A program made the position numbers and the translations under genes. The notes under the pieces were generated by a model. That model was not told where the DNA came from and made no database searches. It saw only the letters and a program-made list of their open reading frames with translations. DNA of 64,000 bases from Escherichia coli (lineage in GTDB: Bacteria; Pseudomonadota; Gammaproteobacteria; Enterobacterales; Enterobacteriaceae), in NCBI RefSeq assembly GCF_003790525.1, contig NZ_CP033635.1. One strand, written 5' to 3'. Each line of letters opens with the position of its first letter. Position 1 is the stretch's first letter. Positions 2,095 to 26,382 of the stretch are shown piece by piece.

Positions 2095-3159
2095 ATGGTA
2101 ACGTCCTGTACTGGACATGTTTTAGATAATCAACGCGCCACCACTCGCGGAGTTTTCTCCTCCGGTAGTCATCTCGTCACTTTGCATTTTCAACCTCATC
2201 CTTTCTTTTCATGTGTTACCGACGCCGCAAACGGTGTGCGTAGCCGTTTTTCGGCATTTTATCCAAAAGCAAACTATGGCTTACAAGGAAGCCAACCCTC
2301 TGATGTTCGTGCGCATAATCGCGCTGCCAACGGCGCGTGTGATGAATACAAACAACTCAAGGTGCTCTCCATGGGAAGACAAAAAGCAGTGATCAAAGCT
2401 CGTCGCGAGGCAAAACGTGTGCTGAGACGGGATTCGCGCAGCCATAAGCAGCGTGAAGAAGAATCGGTCACCTCGCTTGTGCAGATGAGCGGCGTAGAAG
2501 CCATTGGTATGGCCCGCGACAGTCGCGATACTTCGCCCATCCTCGCGCGAAATGAAGCGCAATTGCACTATCTGAAGGCTATTGAGAGTAAGCAGCTGAT
2601 ATTCGCCACGGGCGAAGCCGGGTGCGGAAAAACCTGGATCAGCGCAGCAAAAGCGGCAGAGGCCCTGATACATAAGGATGTCGACAGGATTATCGTCACC
2701 CGTCCAGTTCTGCAAGCCGATGAAGATCTTGGCTTCTTACCTGGTGATATCGCAGAAAAGTTTGCTCCCTATTTTCGCCCGGTCTACGATGTGCTGGTTC
2801 GGCGCTTAGGGGCTTCCTTTATGCAGTACTGCCTGCGACCAGAAATAGGGAAGGTGGAAATTGCGCCGTTCGCCTATATGCGTGGACGTACCTTTGAAAA
2901 TGCAGTCGTCATTCTTGACGAGGCGCAGAATGTGACTGCCGCGCAAATGAAAATGTTTTTAACCCGCCTCGGGGAGAACGTGACGGTTATCGTCAACGGT
3001 GATATCACGCAATGCGATTTGCCTCGCGGCGTGCGCTCCGGATTAAGTGACGCGCTGGAACGTTTCGAAGAAGATGAAATGGTCGGGATCGTCCGATTCG
3101 GTAAAGAGGATTGCGTACGTTCAGCACTTTGCCAACGTACGCTACATGCATACAGTTAA
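2095..3159 (+). CDS. phoH: PhoH, phosphate-starvation-inducible ATPase (PhoH/PhoL family)
   Basis: 354-aa ORF with Walker A GEAGCGKT; internal in-frame start at 2372 (MGRQKAVIKA...) could give a shorter product. Confidence 0.9.
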   Translation: MVTSCTGHVLDNQRATTRGVFSSGSHLVTLHFQPHPFFSCVTDAANGVRSRFSAFYPKANYGLQGSQPSDVRAHNRAANGACDEYKQLKVLSMGRQKAVIKARREAKRVLRRDSRSHKQREEESVTSLVQMSGVEAIGMARDSRDTSPILARNEAQLHYLKAIESKQLIFATGEAGCGKTWISAAKAAEALIHKDVDRIIVTRPVLQADEDLGFLPGDIAEKFAPYFRPVYDVLVRRLGASFMQYCLRPEIGKVEIAPFAYMRGRTFENAVVILDEAQNVTAAQMKMFLTRLGENVTVIVNGDITQCDLPRGVRSGLSDALERFEEDEMVGIVRFGKEDCVRSALCQRTLHAYS

Positions 3160-3174
3160 GTGTATTATCGGCGC

Positions 3175-3205
3175 AGAGCCCGGGCGAACCGGGCTTTGTT
3201 TTATT
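3175..3205 (+). terminator. rho-independent terminator after phoH
   Basis: GC stem agcccgggcgaaccgggct followed by T-run ttgttttatttc. Confidence 0.6.
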
Positions 3206-3721
3206 TCATTAACAGCAAAGACTTTCACTTCAGGTTAACGTTCTGGGGGGCGACTTTGAGCGTGTTGATAAGCTGAAATTAATTCTGGTTTAGATGCTTT
3301 TACCAGGCATTTTTCGTCATAGCACGCGACCAATGTAATGCCTCCAGCGCGGAGAGTTTTTTGCCTATCTTTTTCCAGCCATTCAACCTGTACAGGAGGT
3401 CTGGTGCCAATTTTGCGTATGAGGTTTAATCAACAATGAGCCAAAATTTGACTGACTGATTAACACCAAATATATTCTCCTGATTTTATTTTTTAGGGAT
3501 AATATTAAAAATATAAGGTTAATCTTAATTAAATTTTTGGCTAATATTGTGTCTTGTTATTTTTTGTGGACGGCAAGCCGCAATGGCAAAATAGGTATGG
3601 TTGTAATAATCAAAACATGATACTAACTATATATAGATCGTTGAATTGTTGGCATGTAACTCGCTACAGCGAGTAGCGTTAGTAATGAAATATAATCAAC
3701 ATGGATAGGTGAAGATTAATT

Positions 3722-4408
3722 ATGAGCTTTATGGTTTTTGTAACTTGTTTGACAATTGCATTTGTCGCCGGTTTTGCTGTTGCCAGAAAATTGACACTCC
3801 GAAAAGTTGCCTCATCGGTAATCATCACTAAATCGCAACCAGTTCCTTCCTCTGCAACTTCCCCTGCTGTTAAGGCGTCGACAAGGAGCTATACACCGCA
3901 GAAAACCTATCGTGACTCTCGTTGGCAAGAACGAGATGAGTTGTTCCAGGGAATGGTTGCCGAAGGTATTTTATTGGAAGGAAAAGAGTGGTTAATTACG
4001 CGTTGTGAAAAAATCTATTTTGATAATCTGGAGAAATGGTTTGGACATTATTGTCATATCCATTGCCAGGTCTCTCTGGGGCGCTTGATCAACTTTCCAG
4101 AACAACCCGAGTTTAGCGAAGAAGAAAGAAAGCGTTTCTTTGCAATTTATAATGGAATGGCAATGGATTATGTTCTGGTTTCAAAGAAGAACAATAAAAT
4201 AGTCTGTGTTATTGAGCTGGATGATCCGAGTCATGAAAGGGCAGATCGCATTATTCGTGACCGTTGGTTGAATACGATTATGACTATTGCACGGGTGCCT
4301 TTTGTACGAGCTTCTGTCACTAAATTGGATGAAATCCCTCCGGTCTGGGATACCCGTGACAAAATGCGCCCATTAGCCGCGGCGACAAAGGGTGAACCGT
4401 TGCATTAA
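3722..4408 (+). CDS. hypothetical membrane-anchored protein; N-terminal TM helix, Ser/Pro/Thr-rich linker, Cys/His cluster, DUF2726-like (PD-(D/E)xK-fold-like) C-terminal module; not present at this position in K-12
   Basis: 228-aa ORF preceded by very AT-rich leader; hydrophobic N-terminus MSFMVFVTCLTIAFVAGFAVA; motif MDYVLVSKKNNKIVCVIELDDPSHERADRIIRDRWL resembles the DUF2726 core; about 40% GC on hand count of first 120 nt. Confidence 0.6.
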   Translation: MSFMVFVTCLTIAFVAGFAVARKLTLRKVASSVIITKSQPVPSSATSPAVKASTRSYTPQKTYRDSRWQERDELFQGMVAEGILLEGKEWLITRCEKIYFDNLEKWFGHYCHIHCQVSLGRLINFPEQPEFSEEERKRFFAIYNGMAMDYVLVSKKNNKIVCVIELDDPSHERADRIIRDRWLNTIMTIARVPFVRASVTKLDEIPPVWDTRDKMRPLAAATKGEPLH

Positions 4409-4499
4409 CTAAGTACCCCGATCGGGGCTTCTCATCCCCCCGGTGTGTGCAATATACGAAAAAAAAGCCCGTACTTTCGTACGAGCTCTTCTTTAAAGA

Positions 4500-4587
4500 T
4501 GGCGGTGAGGGGGGGATTCGAACCCCCGATACGTTGCCGTATACACACTTTCCAGGCGTGCTCCTTCAGCCACTCGGACACCTCACC
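4500..4587 (-). tRNA. serX: tRNA-Ser (anticodon GGA), serX-like
   Basis: reverse complement reads GGTGAGGTGTCCGAGTGGCTGAAGGAGCACGCCTGGAAAGTG...GGTTCGAATCCCCCCCTCACCGCCA with long variable arm and CCA end; A-run on + strand 4462-4469 gives terminator on - strand. Confidence 0.9.
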
Positions 4588-4781
4588 AAATTGTTGTTCC
4601 TGTCTTGCTGGAACGGGCGCTAATTTAGGGAAATCATGACCTGAGGTCAACAAACTTTTTTAAAAAATCGCGCGTTTATTCAAACTTCAATCAATATGCA
4701 GTTTTAATAAGCGAAATTTGCTTTTTTTGCCACCGACCACGGATTTGTTATGCTGGTGGCTTTTGTAGATCATAACGATAA

Positions 4782-5759
<978 letters not shown>

Positions 5760-9480: not shown

Positions 9481-10131
<651 letters not shown>

Positions 10132-10885
10132 GATGAAACCCCGCTTTTTTTATTGATCGCACACCTGACAGCTGCCTCTAAAATAGAAGCACCAGAAGTA
10201 CTGACAGATGTTGCACTGCTGTGTGTAGTAATAAATCAGCCCTAAATGGGTAAAATATAAAACTAATGGATTACATCTGATTTCAATCTAGCCATTACAA
10301 ATCTTAAATCAAGTGTTAAACATGTAACTAAATGTAACTCGTTATATTGAAATGTTAATCTTAAGGTTTTATTAAGTTTAGAAATGATAGAAAAGTTGTA
10401 CATTTAGTTTTTATTGCACAATTTTAAAAAATCATACAAATGGTGCTAACTTGCTAATAATGCATATAAAAAATATTTCGGTGTAGTCCTTTCGTCATGT
10501 AAAACGTTCTTGTTTTTTCTCTACACCTCCTTGGACAATTTTTTACTGCAAAAAGACGAGGTTTGTCACGGCTTGTGCGCAAGACATATCGCAGCAATCA
10601 GCGACGGGCAAGAAGAATGGCTGTCTGGTGATTTTTGATTGCGAAAAACGGAGATTTAAAAGAAAACAAAATATTTTTTTGCGTAGATAACAGCGTATTT
10701 ACGTGGGTTTTAATACTTTGGTATGAACAAAAAAAGAAAAATACAACGCGCGGGTGAGTTATTAAAAATATTTCCGCAGACATACTTTCCATCGTAACGC
10801 AGCGTTAACAAAATACAGGTTGCGTTAACAACCAAGTTGAAATGATTTAATTTCTTAAATGTACGACCAGGTCCAGGGTGACAAC
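10132..10885. promoter_or_regulatory. csgD-csgB divergent intergenic regulatory region (csgDEFG and csgBAC promoters, long csgD 5' UTR)
   Basis: about 750 bp non-coding, strongly AT-rich with A/T tracts, between divergently transcribed csgD and csgB. Confidence 0.8.
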
Positions 10886-11341
10886 ATGAAAAACAAATTG
10901 TTATTTATGATGTTAACAATACTGGGTGCGCCTGGGATTGCAGCCGCAGCAGGTTATGATTTAGCTAATTCAGAATATAACTTCGCGGTAAATGAATTGA
11001 GTAAGTCTTCATTTAATCAGGCAGCCATAATTGGTCAAGCTGGGACTAATAATAGTGCTCAGTTACGGCAGGGAGGCTCAAAACTTTTGGCGGTTGTTGC
11101 GCAAGAAGGTAGTAGCAACCGGGCAAAGATTGACCAGACAGGAGATTATAACCTTGCATATATTGATCAGGCGGGCAATGCCAACGATGCCAGTATTTCG
11201 CAAGGTGCTTATGGTAATACTGCGATGATTATCCAGAAAGGTTCTGGTAATAAAGCAAATATTACACAGTATGGTACTCAAAAAACGGCAATTGTAGTGC
11301 AGAGACAGTCGCAAATGGCTATTCGCGTGACACAACGTTAA
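10886..11341 (+). CDS. csgB: minor curlin subunit / nucleator CsgB
   Basis: 151-aa product from MKNKLLFMMLTILGAPGIAAA; Q/N/G-rich repeats. Confidence 0.93.
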   Translation: MKNKLLFMMLTILGAPGIAAAAGYDLANSEYNFAVNELSKSSFNQAAIIGQAGTNNSAQLRQGGSKLLAVVAQEGSSNRAKIDQTGDYNLAYIDQAGNANDASISQGAYGNTAMIIQKGSGNKANITQYGTQKTAIVVQRQSQMAIRVTQR

Positions 11342-25413: not shown

Positions 25414-25980
25414 TTATACTCCATAGTCAGATGACGACTTTCCCAGCATGCGCTTCAGAGTGTCGTCTTTATCGATGAAATGATGCTTCAGGGCCATAAA
25501 TCCATGCATAACGGACAGTACTACGACGCTCCACGCGAGCCAAAAATGCAGGGCACCGGCAAAGTCAGCCTGTGCGCCAGCGTCGGCGAGGGTCGCGGGG
25601 ACGTCAAACCAGCCAAAAACGCTGATCGGTTTACCATCGGCAGTTGAGATCAGATAGCCGCTGATGCCGATGGCGAACAGCAATAGGTACAATGCGAGAT
25701 GTCCAGCCTTTGCGCCAAGACGAGTCATTGACGAATAACTTTGCAGCGGACCCGGCGGTGGAGATATGACGCGCCACAGAACGCGAATAACCAGCCCCAT
25801 CATTAACAAAATACCGATGCTTTTATGCAGTTCGGGTGCTTTGTGATACCAGCCATCGTAATAACTGAGCGTGACCATCCACAGACCTAAAGCAAACATG
25901 CCGTAGACAATAATTGCGCTTATCCAATGTAAGGCCGCAGATATAACACCATAGCGTTCAGGGGTATTTGTGAATGACAT
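25414..25980 (-). CDS. yceJ: cytochrome b561 family protein YceJ
   Basis: 188-aa membrane ORF from MSFTNTPERYG. Confidence 0.88.
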   Translation of the reverse strand: MSFTNTPERYGVISAALHWISAIIVYGMFALGLWMVTLSYYDGWYHKAPELHKSIGILLMMGLVIRVLWRVISPPPGPLQSYSSMTRLGAKAGHLALYLLLFAIGISGYLISTADGKPISVFGWFDVPATLADAGAQADFAGALHFWLAWSVVVLSVMHGFMALKHHFIDKDDTLKRMLGKSSSDYGV

Positions 25981-26217
25981 AAGTGCATCCAAAACGAATT
26001 TGCGAGAGAAAGAAAATGGCGTGTCGGAGAATGAATTGCAACACAAAAATAACAAATCGAATGATATTTATTTTTATTTCAATAATTTTGAATTAATAAT
26101 GAAAGAATCTTCATAAGTTTAGTGGGTTCAGCATCAGAGATGTCTGGTGAGTGCTGTTGAAGCAGGAATAATCTCATTCAATTTTTCACGCTAAATGAAA
26201 GGGAGATTAAATATTTG

Positions 26218-26382
26218 TCAGTTTATGTCAGTGCGGAAAACTAAAAATAAAACACATAGATCAGATCCATAATTGCCAACAATCCCCAGAGAAAAAGATA
26301 AAGCATCAGATGCTCGCGAATATTATTGATGAGATAGTGCAACAGCCGACGCATTAAATACTCCTGTAAAAACGGCCTCATT
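26218..26382 (-). CDS. yceO: small protein YceO (short ORF, start uncertain)
   Basis: short ORF translated by hand ([34 protein letters not shown]...), between yceJ and solA; not in ORF track because under 60 aa. Confidence 0.4.

What the first reader, a model, noticed from the sequence alone, without database searches (positions are those of the whole stretch)
3400..3721. Strongly AT-rich 300-bp leader with A/T tracts and a hairpin upstream of the islet gene
3420-3720 is dominated by A/T runs (ttttattttttagggataatattaaaaatataaggttaatcttaattaaatttttgg...), which typically gives curved DNA that H-NS binds and silences. A 6-bp-stem inverted repeat actcgc-taca-gcgagt (3659-3674) lies about 47 nt upstream of the ATG and could be an operator or 5'-UTR structure. 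This suggests the gene is normally silenced and conditionally expressed, which matters for phenotype tests.
Basis: partly seen in the sequence, partly recalled or inferred. Interest (0 to 1): 0.35.

Follow-up and report, generated by a model that had tools for sequence, protein, structure and literature searches.

The report
AT-rich promoter leader of orphan gene
This is the very AT-rich promoter and leader of a small accessory E. coli gene of unknown function; it is a plausible but untested H-NS silencing target, and the noted hairpin is a strain-specific coincidence.

Summary
The window is E. coli SMS-3-5-like chromosome. A 1.2-kb islet (about 3203-4415) lies between phoH and tRNA-Ser serX. 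It carries one gene, 3722-4408, encoding a 228-aa membrane-anchored DUF2726 protein. The same slot in K-12 holds pgaABCD-dgcT-ycdU.

The AT-richness is real. Positions 3441-3721 are 70.5% AT, in the top 0.3% of the window and far below the 45% GC median of non-coding segments. This composition is kept in orthologues: 29-31% GC in Escherichia, 24-27% GC in Salmonella and Citrobacter. About 230 nt of the leader is homologous in all three genera, including Citrobacter, where the flanking genes differ. It is therefore the gene's own regulatory region.

Conserved blocks are TGAAATATAAT (3686-3696, a perfect -10), ATCAAAACATGATACT (3609-3624) and the ribosome-binding and start region.

The curvature claim is not supported, because AA/TT dinucleotides show no 10-11 bp phasing. 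H-NS binding is plausible from composition alone but was not testable here.

The hairpin at 3659-3674 exists but does not hold up:
- Its count is at chance level.
- It is perfect in only 270 of 1045 carrier genomes.
- It arose from one derived A-to-T change.
- It is broken in E. albertii and absent in Salmonella and Citrobacter.
- No Rfam hit, folding signal or covariation supports it.

Verdict: an ordinary feature of low interest.

The parts
3173..3199 (+). phoH intrinsic terminator. It is the last sequence shared with E. coli genomes that lack the islet.
   Evidence: Terminator scan found 11 pairs followed by a T-run. Only query bases 1-43 (window 3160-3202) match in genomes without the islet.
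3203..3440 (.). Escherichia-specific filler or remnant with broken minus-strand ORF fragments. It carries a 27-bp indel between lineages and is absent from Salmonella and Citrobacter.
   Evidence: Alignments. Identity to E. albertii is 71%, below the CDS third-position identity. No protein homologues exist outside this locus.
3441..3721 (+). AT-rich leader and promoter region of the DUF2726 gene (70.5% AT).
   Evidence: The AT-richness is kept in orthologues.
3495..3721 (+). The part of the leader that is homologous in Salmonella and Citrobacter and so travels with the gene.
   Evidence: MAFFT alignments. Global-alignment z-scores against shuffles: E. coli vs Salmonella 5.0, E. coli vs Citrobacter 4.5, Salmonella vs Citrobacter 30.8. 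Citrobacter has different flanking genes.
3448..3476 (+). Candidate promoter P1, TTGACT-17-TATATT (10 of 12). It is only partly conserved.
   Evidence: The -35 becomes TTGCCT or TTGATT, and the -10 becomes TATATG in E. albertii. It lies outside the part shared with Salmonella and Citrobacter.
3583..3610 (+). Candidate promoter P2, ATGGCA-16-TGtAATAAT (extended -10).
   Evidence: GTAATAAT is invariant within Escherichia but is not kept in Salmonella.
3609..3624 (+). Conserved block ATCAAAACATGATACT. In Salmonella and Citrobacter it reads ATAAAAATAtTATACT and includes a TATACT -10-like hexamer.
3659..3674 (+). It is lineage-specific.
   Evidence: The exact 46-nt allele is present in 270 of 1045 carrier genomes. 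Other E. coli lineages, Escherichia sp. MOD1-EC7003 and E. albertii all have A at 3661. E. albertii keeps only 3 of 6 pairs. Salmonella and Citrobacter have unrelated sequence here.
3662..3678 (+). Overlapping alternative inverted repeat CGCTAC-AGCGA-GTAGCG, also lineage-specific.
   Evidence: It is broken in the other lineages (GTAACA or GTAACG).
3686..3696 (+). TGAAATATAAT, the most conserved upstream element, containing a perfect -10 hexamer TATAAT at 3691-3696 (candidate promoter P3). The inferred transcription start is near 3703. No -35 match is present.
   Evidence: TATAAT is invariant in Escherichia, Salmonella and Citrobacter; the flanking TGAAA has a single A-to-G change in Citrobacter. 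Positions 3675-3721 are 91.5% identical to E. albertii, against 80% at CDS third positions. The start site is an inference.
3707..3714 (+). Shine-Dalgarno-like AGGTGAAG, 8 nt upstream of the ATG.
   Evidence: Read from the sequence. Conserved within Escherichia.
3722..4408 (+). DUF2726 gene: 228 aa with an N-terminal hydrophobic helix and a PD-(D/E)XK/Vsr-like domain.
   Evidence: Pfam PF10881, E = 1.9e-18. RefSeq product WP_012311993.1. Classified in the PD-(D/E)XK superfamily with unknown function (PMC3424549).
4500..4587 (-). tRNA-Ser(GGA) serX, on the right-hand side of the islet.

Best explanation
Positions 3441-3721 are the DUF2726 gene's own AT-rich promoter and leader. About 230 nt of it (roughly 3495-3721) has stayed attached to the coding sequence in Escherichia, Salmonella and Citrobacter.

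The functional core is most likely the short conserved proximal part. It consists of a perfect -10 hexamer (TATAAT, 3691-3696, within the conserved TGAAATATAAT), an inferred transcription start near 3703, a Shine-Dalgarno sequence at 3707-3714 and the ATG at 3722. A second conserved block at 3609-3624 may be an alternative -10 or a protein-binding site.

The rest of the leader evolves at about the neutral rate but stays 70-76% AT. By composition, the leader and the 43% GC gene are a likely target for H-NS/StpA filament formation, which would keep this weak promoter (it has no -35) low unless counter-silenced. This step is inferred, not shown.

The 6-bp hairpin has no conserved role. It became perfect through a single derived A-to-T substitution at 3661 in the SMS-3-5 lineage.
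For: - Composition: the leader is in the top 0.3% for AT content, and W-runs and TpA steps are extreme for the window.
- Accessory status: the islet is present in about 1045-1051 of 5426 complete E. coli genomes, including O26 and O111 STEC and several ETEC strains. It replaces the K-12 pga-dgcT-ycdU block.
- Composition is conserved across orthologues: leader GC is 0.29-0.31 in Escherichia, 0.25-0.27 in Salmonella and 0.24-0.26 in Citrobacter.
- Leader homology holds across genera even though the Citrobacter flanks differ.
- The proximal blocks are conserved and TATAAT is invariant.
- The identity gradient against E. albertii is 74% (3441-3580), 84% (3581-3721) and 91.5% (3675-3721), against 80% at CDS third positions.
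- H-NS binding follows AT content rather than curvature (PMC1550270).
- Hairpin non-conservation.
- No RNA structure signal: fold z-scores are 0.15 and -0.38, the consensus fold energy is -0.23 kcal/mol with no compensatory pairs, and Rfam gives no hit.
Against: - No transcription start, expression or ChIP data were available for any strain carrying the locus, so the active promoter (P1, P2 or P3) and H-NS occupancy are both unproven.
- P3 has no recognisable -35 and no correctly spaced TG.
- There is no good H-NS nucleation motif and no phased A-tracts.
- H-NS does not bind all AT-rich DNA.
- Away from the conserved blocks, the E. coli-Salmonella alignment lies in low-complexity AT-rich sequence and is only moderately above shuffles (z about 5).
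Confidence: 0.58

Rival explanations
1. This is an ordinary AT-rich promoter region that H-NS does not silence. The gene would be expressed constitutively at a low level, or controlled by some other factor that binds the conserved blocks at 3609-3624 and 3686-3696.
For: - H-NS does not bind all AT-rich genes, and it bound only 42% of laterally acquired genes in Salmonella.
- There is no nucleation motif above chance and no curvature signal.
- The AT-rich stretch is short, about 280-330 bp, and the gene itself is a moderate 43% GC.
Against: At 70.5% AT, the leader is comparable to the csgD/csgB intergenic region in the same window, which from established knowledge is H-NS-bound. Composition is the best single predictor of H-NS binding.
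Confidence: 0.27
2. The inverted repeat at 3659-3674 is a functional element. It would act either as an operator for a dimeric regulator, sitting at about -44 to -29 of the P3 promoter, or as a 5'-UTR hairpin if transcription starts at P1 or P2.
For: - The repeat is perfect in the window, and a G+C-rich stem is unusual in this AT-rich context (P about 0.01).
- It overlaps the -35 position of the conserved TATAAT.
- Salmonella has a different 5-bp repeat, TGATA-N6-TATCA, at nearly the same distance from TATAAT (read from the alignment).
Against: - The count of such repeats is at chance level.
- It is perfect in only 270 of 1045 carrier genomes.
- The A at 3661 shared by the other E. coli lineages, Escherichia sp. 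MOD1 and E. albertii shows that the perfect form is derived.
- E. albertii has two further uncompensated changes.
- Salmonella and Citrobacter share no sequence similarity here.
- The loop varies and there is no covariation.
- The islet contains no regulator gene.
- A 5-bp AT-rich repeat in Salmonella is expected by chance.
Confidence: 0.03
3. The leader is transcribed as a long 5'-UTR of about 105-240 nt from P2 or P1, and acts after transcription. One possibility is pairing of AUGAAAUAUAAU (3685-3696) with the start-codon region to mask translation initiation.
For: - P1 and P2 score 10 of 12 and 9 of 12.
- The consensus fold pairs the conserved TATAAT block with AUUAAUUAUG around the start codon in all 7 sequences.
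Against: - The consensus energy is essentially zero (-0.23 kcal/mol).
- All pairs are A-U or G-U and invariant, so nothing covaries.
- Single-sequence folds are no better than shuffles.
- P1 lies outside the part of the leader shared with other genera, and its -10 is damaged in E. albertii.
Confidence: 0.07
4. The stretch is non-functional decaying DNA. Its AT-richness would reflect only mutational bias in a relic islet left next to the serX integration hotspot.
For: - The adjacent segment 3203-3440 looks like a decayed remnant.
- The distal leader evolves at or above the neutral rate.
- serX is used by integrases in other strains.
Against: - The ORF is intact in E. coli, E. albertii, Salmonella and Citrobacter.
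- The proximal leader is more conserved than synonymous sites.
- The leader accompanies the gene into a different genomic context in Citrobacter.
Confidence: 0.05

Closest known systems
H-NS/StpA xenogeneic silencing of AT-rich acquired genes, as at the proU, bgl and csgD regulatory regions and the Salmonella pathogenicity islands
   Same: The leader is about 70% AT in a 50.6% GC genome and rich in TpA steps and W-runs. It sits upstream of a patchily distributed, lower-GC gene. Its composition matches the csgD/csgB region in the same window.
   Different: Occupancy and de-repression data are lacking. There is no good match to the tCGATAAATT nucleation motif and no phased A-tracts. The AT-rich tract is short, and the gene body is only moderately AT-rich.
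Sigma-70 promoters with a consensus -10 and no -35, which typically depend on an activator or on an extended -10
   Same: An invariant TATAAT lies 25-30 nt upstream of the ATG in three genera, followed by a Shine-Dalgarno sequence.
   Different: There is no -35 match. The TG dinucleotide sits 3 nt upstream of the hexamer rather than the 1 nt of a canonical extended -10. The transcription start is unmapped.
Structured 5'-UTR cis-regulators such as riboswitches, RNA thermometers and attenuators
   Same: Only that a small stem-loop can be drawn upstream of the start codon.
   Different: There is no Rfam match, no excess folding energy and no conservation or covariation.

Membership tests
H-NS-silenced xenogeneic regulatory region | AT content well above the genome average over at least 100-300 bp | tested here: met
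   Positions 3441-3721 are 70.5% AT against 49.4% for the window, in the top 0.3% of windows. The median GC of non-coding segments is 44.9%.
H-NS-silenced xenogeneic regulatory region | Associated with accessory or horizontally mobile DNA | tested here: met
   The islet is in about 1045 of 5426 E. coli genomes and is an alternative to the pga-dgcT-ycdU block. The same gene and leader occur in a different genomic context in Citrobacter.
H-NS-silenced xenogeneic regulatory region | High-affinity nucleation motif tCGATAAATT with a central TpA step | tested here: inconclusive
   There is one 2-mismatch hit, TCGTTGAATT at 3638-3647, which lacks the central TpA. Window-wide, 81 hits were found against 64.5 expected. 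The motif is as given in PMC2094087.
H-NS-silenced xenogeneic regulatory region | Intrinsic curvature from helically phased A-tracts.
   AA/TT power at 10-11 bp is 0.20 against a shuffle mean of 0.50, P = 0.91. A full wedge-model curvature calculation was not run.
H-NS-silenced xenogeneic regulatory region | H-NS occupancy in vivo and de-repression in an hns mutant | not testable with these tools
   No ChIP or transcriptome data for a carrier strain were found. The supplementary tables of PMC1550270 are not held. STM1127 turned out to be a different gene.
Structured cis-regulatory RNA in a 5'-UTR | Match to a curated RNA family | tested here: not met
   Rfam gave no hit in 3200-3721 at E <= 1.
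Structured cis-regulatory RNA in a 5'-UTR | Structure conserved, with compensatory changes, among orthologues | tested here: not met
   Zero of 14 consensus pairs are compensatory, the consensus energy is -0.23 kcal/mol, and the hairpin is not in the consensus. The stem is broken in most lineages.
Structured cis-regulatory RNA in a 5'-UTR | Folding energy better than shuffled controls | tested here: not met
   z = 0.15 for 3617-3760 and z = -0.38 for 3484-3760.
Palindromic operator of a dimeric transcription factor | Inverted repeat conserved at orthologous loci | tested here: not met
   The perfect allele is in 270 of 1045 E. coli carrier genomes. E. albertii keeps 3 of 6 pairs. Salmonella and Citrobacter have unrelated sequence at this position.
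Palindromic operator of a dimeric transcription factor | Cognate regulator encoded nearby | tested here: not met
   The islet has a single annotated gene. The upstream ORF fragments have no homologues outside the locus.
Sigma-70 promoter | Conserved -10 hexamer at a suitable distance from the start codon | tested here: met
   TATAAT at 3691-3696 is invariant in 7 of 7 sequences from three genera.
Sigma-70 promoter | A -35 hexamer 16-18 bp upstream, or a TGn extended -10 | tested here: not met
   At spacings of 16-18 bp the hexamers are GCGAGT, AGCGAG and CAGCGA, matching TTGACA at 0-2 of 6 positions. The TG lies 3 nt upstream of the hexamer (read). The site was not reported by the scan.
Sigma-70 promoter | Mapped transcription start site | not testable with these tools
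   No start-site data were available.

The most novel reading that the evidence does not exclude
The roughly 230-nt AT-rich leader could be a dedicated regulatory module that moves together with this membrane-anchored DUF2726 (PD-(D/E)XK-like) gene. Its conserved blocks at 3609-3624 and 3686-3696 would be bound by a specific counter-silencer or activator. The gene itself would be an orphan copy of a type VI secretion accessory, effector or immunity-type gene: a 57%-identical homologue sits between tssA and tssF, and another lies next to vgrG. Under this reading, expression would be silenced by H-NS and switched on together with inter-bacterial competition functions.
Probability: 0.1. Interest if true: 0.35.

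Novelty: new member of a known kind. Interest (0 to 1): 0.12.

Why it matters
This matters little beyond annotation. It adds one uncharacterised accessory locus to the many AT-rich regions likely to be targeted by xenogeneic silencing. The locus is present in about one fifth of E. coli (including O26 and O111 STEC), in E. albertii and in many Salmonella.

The practical points are these:
- In these strains the DUF2726 islet occupies the slot that carries the pga biofilm operon in K-12.
- The gene may be poorly expressed under laboratory conditions.
- The hairpin should not be treated as a regulatory element.
- The conserved TGAAATATAAT and ATCAAAACATGATACT blocks are the sensible targets for promoter dissection.

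Tried and rejected
1. An Rfam scan of 3000-4800 at E <= 1 found nothing in the leader.
2. Single-sequence RNA folds of two candidate 5'-UTRs were no better than shuffles.
3. A consensus fold over three genera showed no structure.
4. Small ORFs in the leader, for example 3554-3676 (40 aa, TTG start), are truncated in other lineages, so they are not conserved.
5. The minus-strand ORF fragments in 3203-3440 were tested as a possible decayed divergent regulator. tblastn against plasmids and a 5.8-billion-protein search found only the same locus.
6. The H-NS motif scan was at chance level.
7. The test for A-tract phasing was negative.
8. PADLOC and NCBIfam gave no hit for the protein. PDB sequence search gave no meaningful hit. 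PHROGs returned only a family of unknown function.
9. In the literature, DUF2726 appears only in classification papers and plasmid gene lists.
10. I suspected STM1127 might be the Salmonella orthologue, but it is a MurR-type repressor of a ManNAc cluster and unrelated to this gene.
12. By-eye checks for Fur, PhoB and IHF boxes in the conserved blocks found nothing convincing. These were not formal scans.
13. Homologues from Erwinia, Dickeya and a T6SS cluster are not syntenic, so they could not be used for leader comparison.

Full report
**Locus**

The window is 100% identical to the E. coli SMS-3-5 chromosome over the region tested. The gene order is efeUOB, phoH (stop at 3159), the phoH terminator (3173-3199), a 1.2-kb islet, tRNA-Ser(GGA) serX (4500-4587, minus strand), then ghrA-ycdXYZ-csgG.

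The islet holds one annotated gene, 3722-4408 on the plus strand. It encodes 228 aa with a hydrophobic N-terminal helix and a DUF2726 domain (Pfam PF10881, E = 1.9e-18). DUF2726 belongs to the PD-(D/E)XK superfamily and has no known function (PMC3424549).

In K-12 the same phoH-serX slot holds pgaDCBA, dgcT, IS3, ymdE and ycdU. The pga-less arrangement has been noted in the literature without mention of this gene (PMC5635171).

The islet is single-copy and present in about 1045-1051 of 5426 complete E. coli genomes. Carriers include O26 and O111 STEC and several ETEC strains. Genomes without it share only the phoH terminator (window 3160-3202) and a 66-nt repeat/terminator piece at 4415-4480.

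**The observation**

The AT-richness is real and strong.
- Positions 3441-3721 are 29.5% GC and 3420-3719 are 30.0% GC, in a 50.6% GC window.
- Only 0.3% of 300-bp windows are this low.
- The only comparable places are the csgD/csgB intergenic region (10069-10930) and the yceO/yceJ region (25941-26365).
- Non-coding segments in the window have a median GC of 44.9%.
- W-runs of at least 6 nt cover 114 nt, and there are 35 TpA steps. Both values are in the top 0.2%.

The inverted repeat ACTCGC-TACA-GCGAGT is at 3659-3674, with 47 nt between it and the ATG.
- As a count it is unremarkable: two 6-bp repeats are observed in 3400-3721 against 1.13 expected from dinucleotide shuffles (P = 0.31).
- A stem with at least 4 G/C is rare in this composition (P about 0.01).
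- A second, mutually exclusive repeat overlaps it: CGCTAC-AGCGA-GTAGCG at 3662-3678.

**Hairpin conservation**

I aligned the intergenic region from E. coli lineages at 93-98% identity, Escherichia sp. MOD1-EC7003, E. albertii, Salmonella enterica and Citrobacter.
- Every lineage except the SMS-3-5 and THO-008 type has A, not T, at 3661. That gives an uncompensated A-A mismatch.
- The loop varies (TACA, TTCA, TGCA).
- E. albertii has two more uncompensated changes (ACACAC-TTCA-ACGAGT), leaving 3 of 6 pairs.
- Salmonella and Citrobacter have unrelated sequence at this position.
- Across complete genomes, the exact 46-nt allele containing the perfect stem occurs in 270 of 1045 carriers. The rest differ at 3 or 5 positions.

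Because the outgroups share the A, the perfect palindrome is a derived single-base change.

No RNA-level evidence supports it either. Folds of the candidate 5'-UTRs are no better than shuffles (z = 0.15 and -0.38). The cross-genus consensus fold has an energy of -0.23 kcal/mol, no compensatory pairs, and does not include this hairpin. Rfam finds nothing in 3200-3721.

**What the leader is**

The interval between phoH and the ATG has two parts.

*3203-3440.* This part is specific to Escherichia.
- It contains broken minus-strand ORF fragments and a 27-bp indel between lineages.
- It is only 71% identical to E. albertii, less than CDS third positions at 80%.
- It has no homologue outside this locus.
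- It looks like decayed filler.

*About 3495-3721.* This part belongs to the gene.
- Salmonella has the same phoH-DUF2726 adjacency. There the ORF is often mis-called as 151 aa, but the 219-aa frame is intact.
- In Citrobacter the orthologue sits among tdc/sda-type genes rather than next to phoH, yet it carries the same leader.
- Global-alignment scores against shuffles are z = 30.8 for Salmonella vs Citrobacter, 5.0 for E. coli vs Salmonella and 4.5 for E. coli vs Citrobacter.
- Composition is maintained everywhere: 0.29-0.31 GC in Escherichia, 0.25-0.27 in Salmonella and 0.24-0.26 in Citrobacter.

Sequence conservation is concentrated in three places:
- TGAAATATAAT at 3686-3696. Its TATAAT hexamer is invariant in all seven sequences from three genera.
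- ATCAAAACATGATACT at 3609-3624. Salmonella and Citrobacter read ATAAAAATAtTATACT here.
- The Shine-Dalgarno and start region.

Against E. albertii, identity rises towards the gene: 74% (3441-3580), 84% (3581-3721) and 91.5% (3675-3721).

**Promoter candidates**

- The consensus scan lists P1 (3448-3476, TTGACT-17-TATATT) and P2 (3583-3610, ATGGCA-16-TGtAATAAT). P1 lies outside the part shared between genera, and its -10 is damaged in E. albertii.
- The best-conserved element is the TATAAT at 3691-3696 (P3). It has no -35 and no properly spaced TG, so it would be weak or activator-dependent. The inferred start is near 3703, giving a leader of about 19 nt.
- On that reading the inverted repeat sits at about -44 to -29.
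- Which promoter is actually used is inference. I found no start-site data.

**H-NS**

What can be said from sequence is that the leader falls in the composition class H-NS prefers.
- Genome-wide in Salmonella, H-NS binding correlated best with AT content and much less with curvature.
- AT-rich genes were about 20 times more likely to be H-NS-repressed.
- H-NS bound 42% of laterally acquired genes, and it does not bind every AT-rich gene (PMC1550270).

AA/TT dinucleotides show no 10-11 bp periodicity (P = 0.91).

The published high-affinity motif tCGATAAATT (PMC2094087) has one 2-mismatch hit, TCGTTGAATT at 3638-3647. It lacks the central TpA step, and window-wide the hit count is only slightly above chance.

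Occupancy and de-repression could not be tested. I found no data for this locus. STM1127, which I suspected might be the Salmonella orthologue, is an unrelated MurR-type repressor. I put H-NS/StpA binding in vivo at roughly 55-60%.

**Comparison with known systems**

In kind, this is an AT-rich regulatory region of an accessory gene, the standard substrate for xenogeneic silencing.
- It meets the composition and accessory-distribution criteria.
- It is inconclusive for the nucleation motif.
- It fails the weak curvature correlate.
- It is untested for the defining in vivo properties.
- It is not a member of any curated RNA family, and it fails every test for a structured 5'-UTR or a conserved palindromic operator.

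**Verdict**

The AT-richness is confirmed, and H-NS targeting is plausible but unproven. The curvature argument and the hairpin are not supported. The feature is ordinary: a new instance of a well-known kind. Interest is low (0.12).

The one mildly interesting by-product concerns the gene rather than the leader. Homologues of this protein occur inside a type VI secretion cluster between tssA and tssF (57% identity), next to vgrG in Erwinia, and at the ends of integrative conjugative elements. The phoH-adjacent copy may therefore be an orphan of a conflict-system gene.

Noticed in passing
L020 and L021 2501-3160; L018 2501-3136; L019 and L022 2501-3145: Homologues of the DUF2726 protein lie inside a T6SS cluster between tssA (ImpA_N/VasJ) and tssF, with 57% identity over the domain. 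Another sits directly upstream of vgrG in Erwinia. Others sit near the integrase end of ICE-like elements in Dickeya and E. coli. The phoH-adjacent gene may be an orphan of a T6SS-associated gene.
   Followed up: partly
L024 2770-3693 (Citrobacter portucalensis / C. freundii complex): The orthologue sits among tdcE/tdcF/serine-dehydratase-type genes instead of next to phoH, yet it keeps about 230 nt of the same AT-rich leader. Gene and leader have therefore moved as a unit, and I saw no recognisable mobility gene nearby.
   Followed up: partly
window 3203-3440: This Escherichia-specific segment lies between the phoH terminator and the leader. It has broken minus-strand ORF fragments and a 27-bp indel (present in the THO-008, B1 and E. 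albertii types, absent in the window). Its origin is unknown, and no homologue was found anywhere outside this locus.
   Followed up: yes
window 3000-3154, minus strand: Rfam RF02855 (Ysr251, a Yersinia antisense sRNA) matches at 144.8 bits, above its gathering score of 100. The match is antisense to the 3' end of phoH and was cut by my search boundary at 3000.
   Followed up: no
window 4415-4480; L005 2858-2994; L011 3807-4123: The 66 nt downstream of the DUF2726 gene is a piece of a repeat found in nearly all E. coli genomes (median 2 matching places per genome) and annotated in RefSeq as RtT sRNA. B1-type strains carry one or two full 137-nt RtT units here, and many have a tyrosine integrase (an island or prophage) inserted next to serX.
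   Followed up: partly
L015-L017 2797-3456 (Salmonella enterica): The Salmonella orthologue is frequently annotated as a 151-aa protein starting at an internal codon. The full 219-aa ORF, with the conserved MSFM... start and the AT-rich leader, is intact.
   Followed up: yes
window 2095-3159: The longest phoH ORF is 354 aa, starting at 2095, whereas RefSeq annotates a 262-aa product starting at about 2371. K-12 is annotated with the 354-aa form.
   Followed up: no
window 25941-26365 and 10069-10930: These are the only other stretches in the window as AT-rich as the leader: the yceO/yceJ intergenic region and the csgD/csgB intergenic region.
   Followed up: partly
window 3606-3613 and 3692-3699: The octamer ATAATCAA occurs twice, 86 bp apart, each time followed by (AA)CATG(G)AT, and both copies fall inside conserved blocks. 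They could be two related -10 and start modules or paired binding sites.
   Followed up: no
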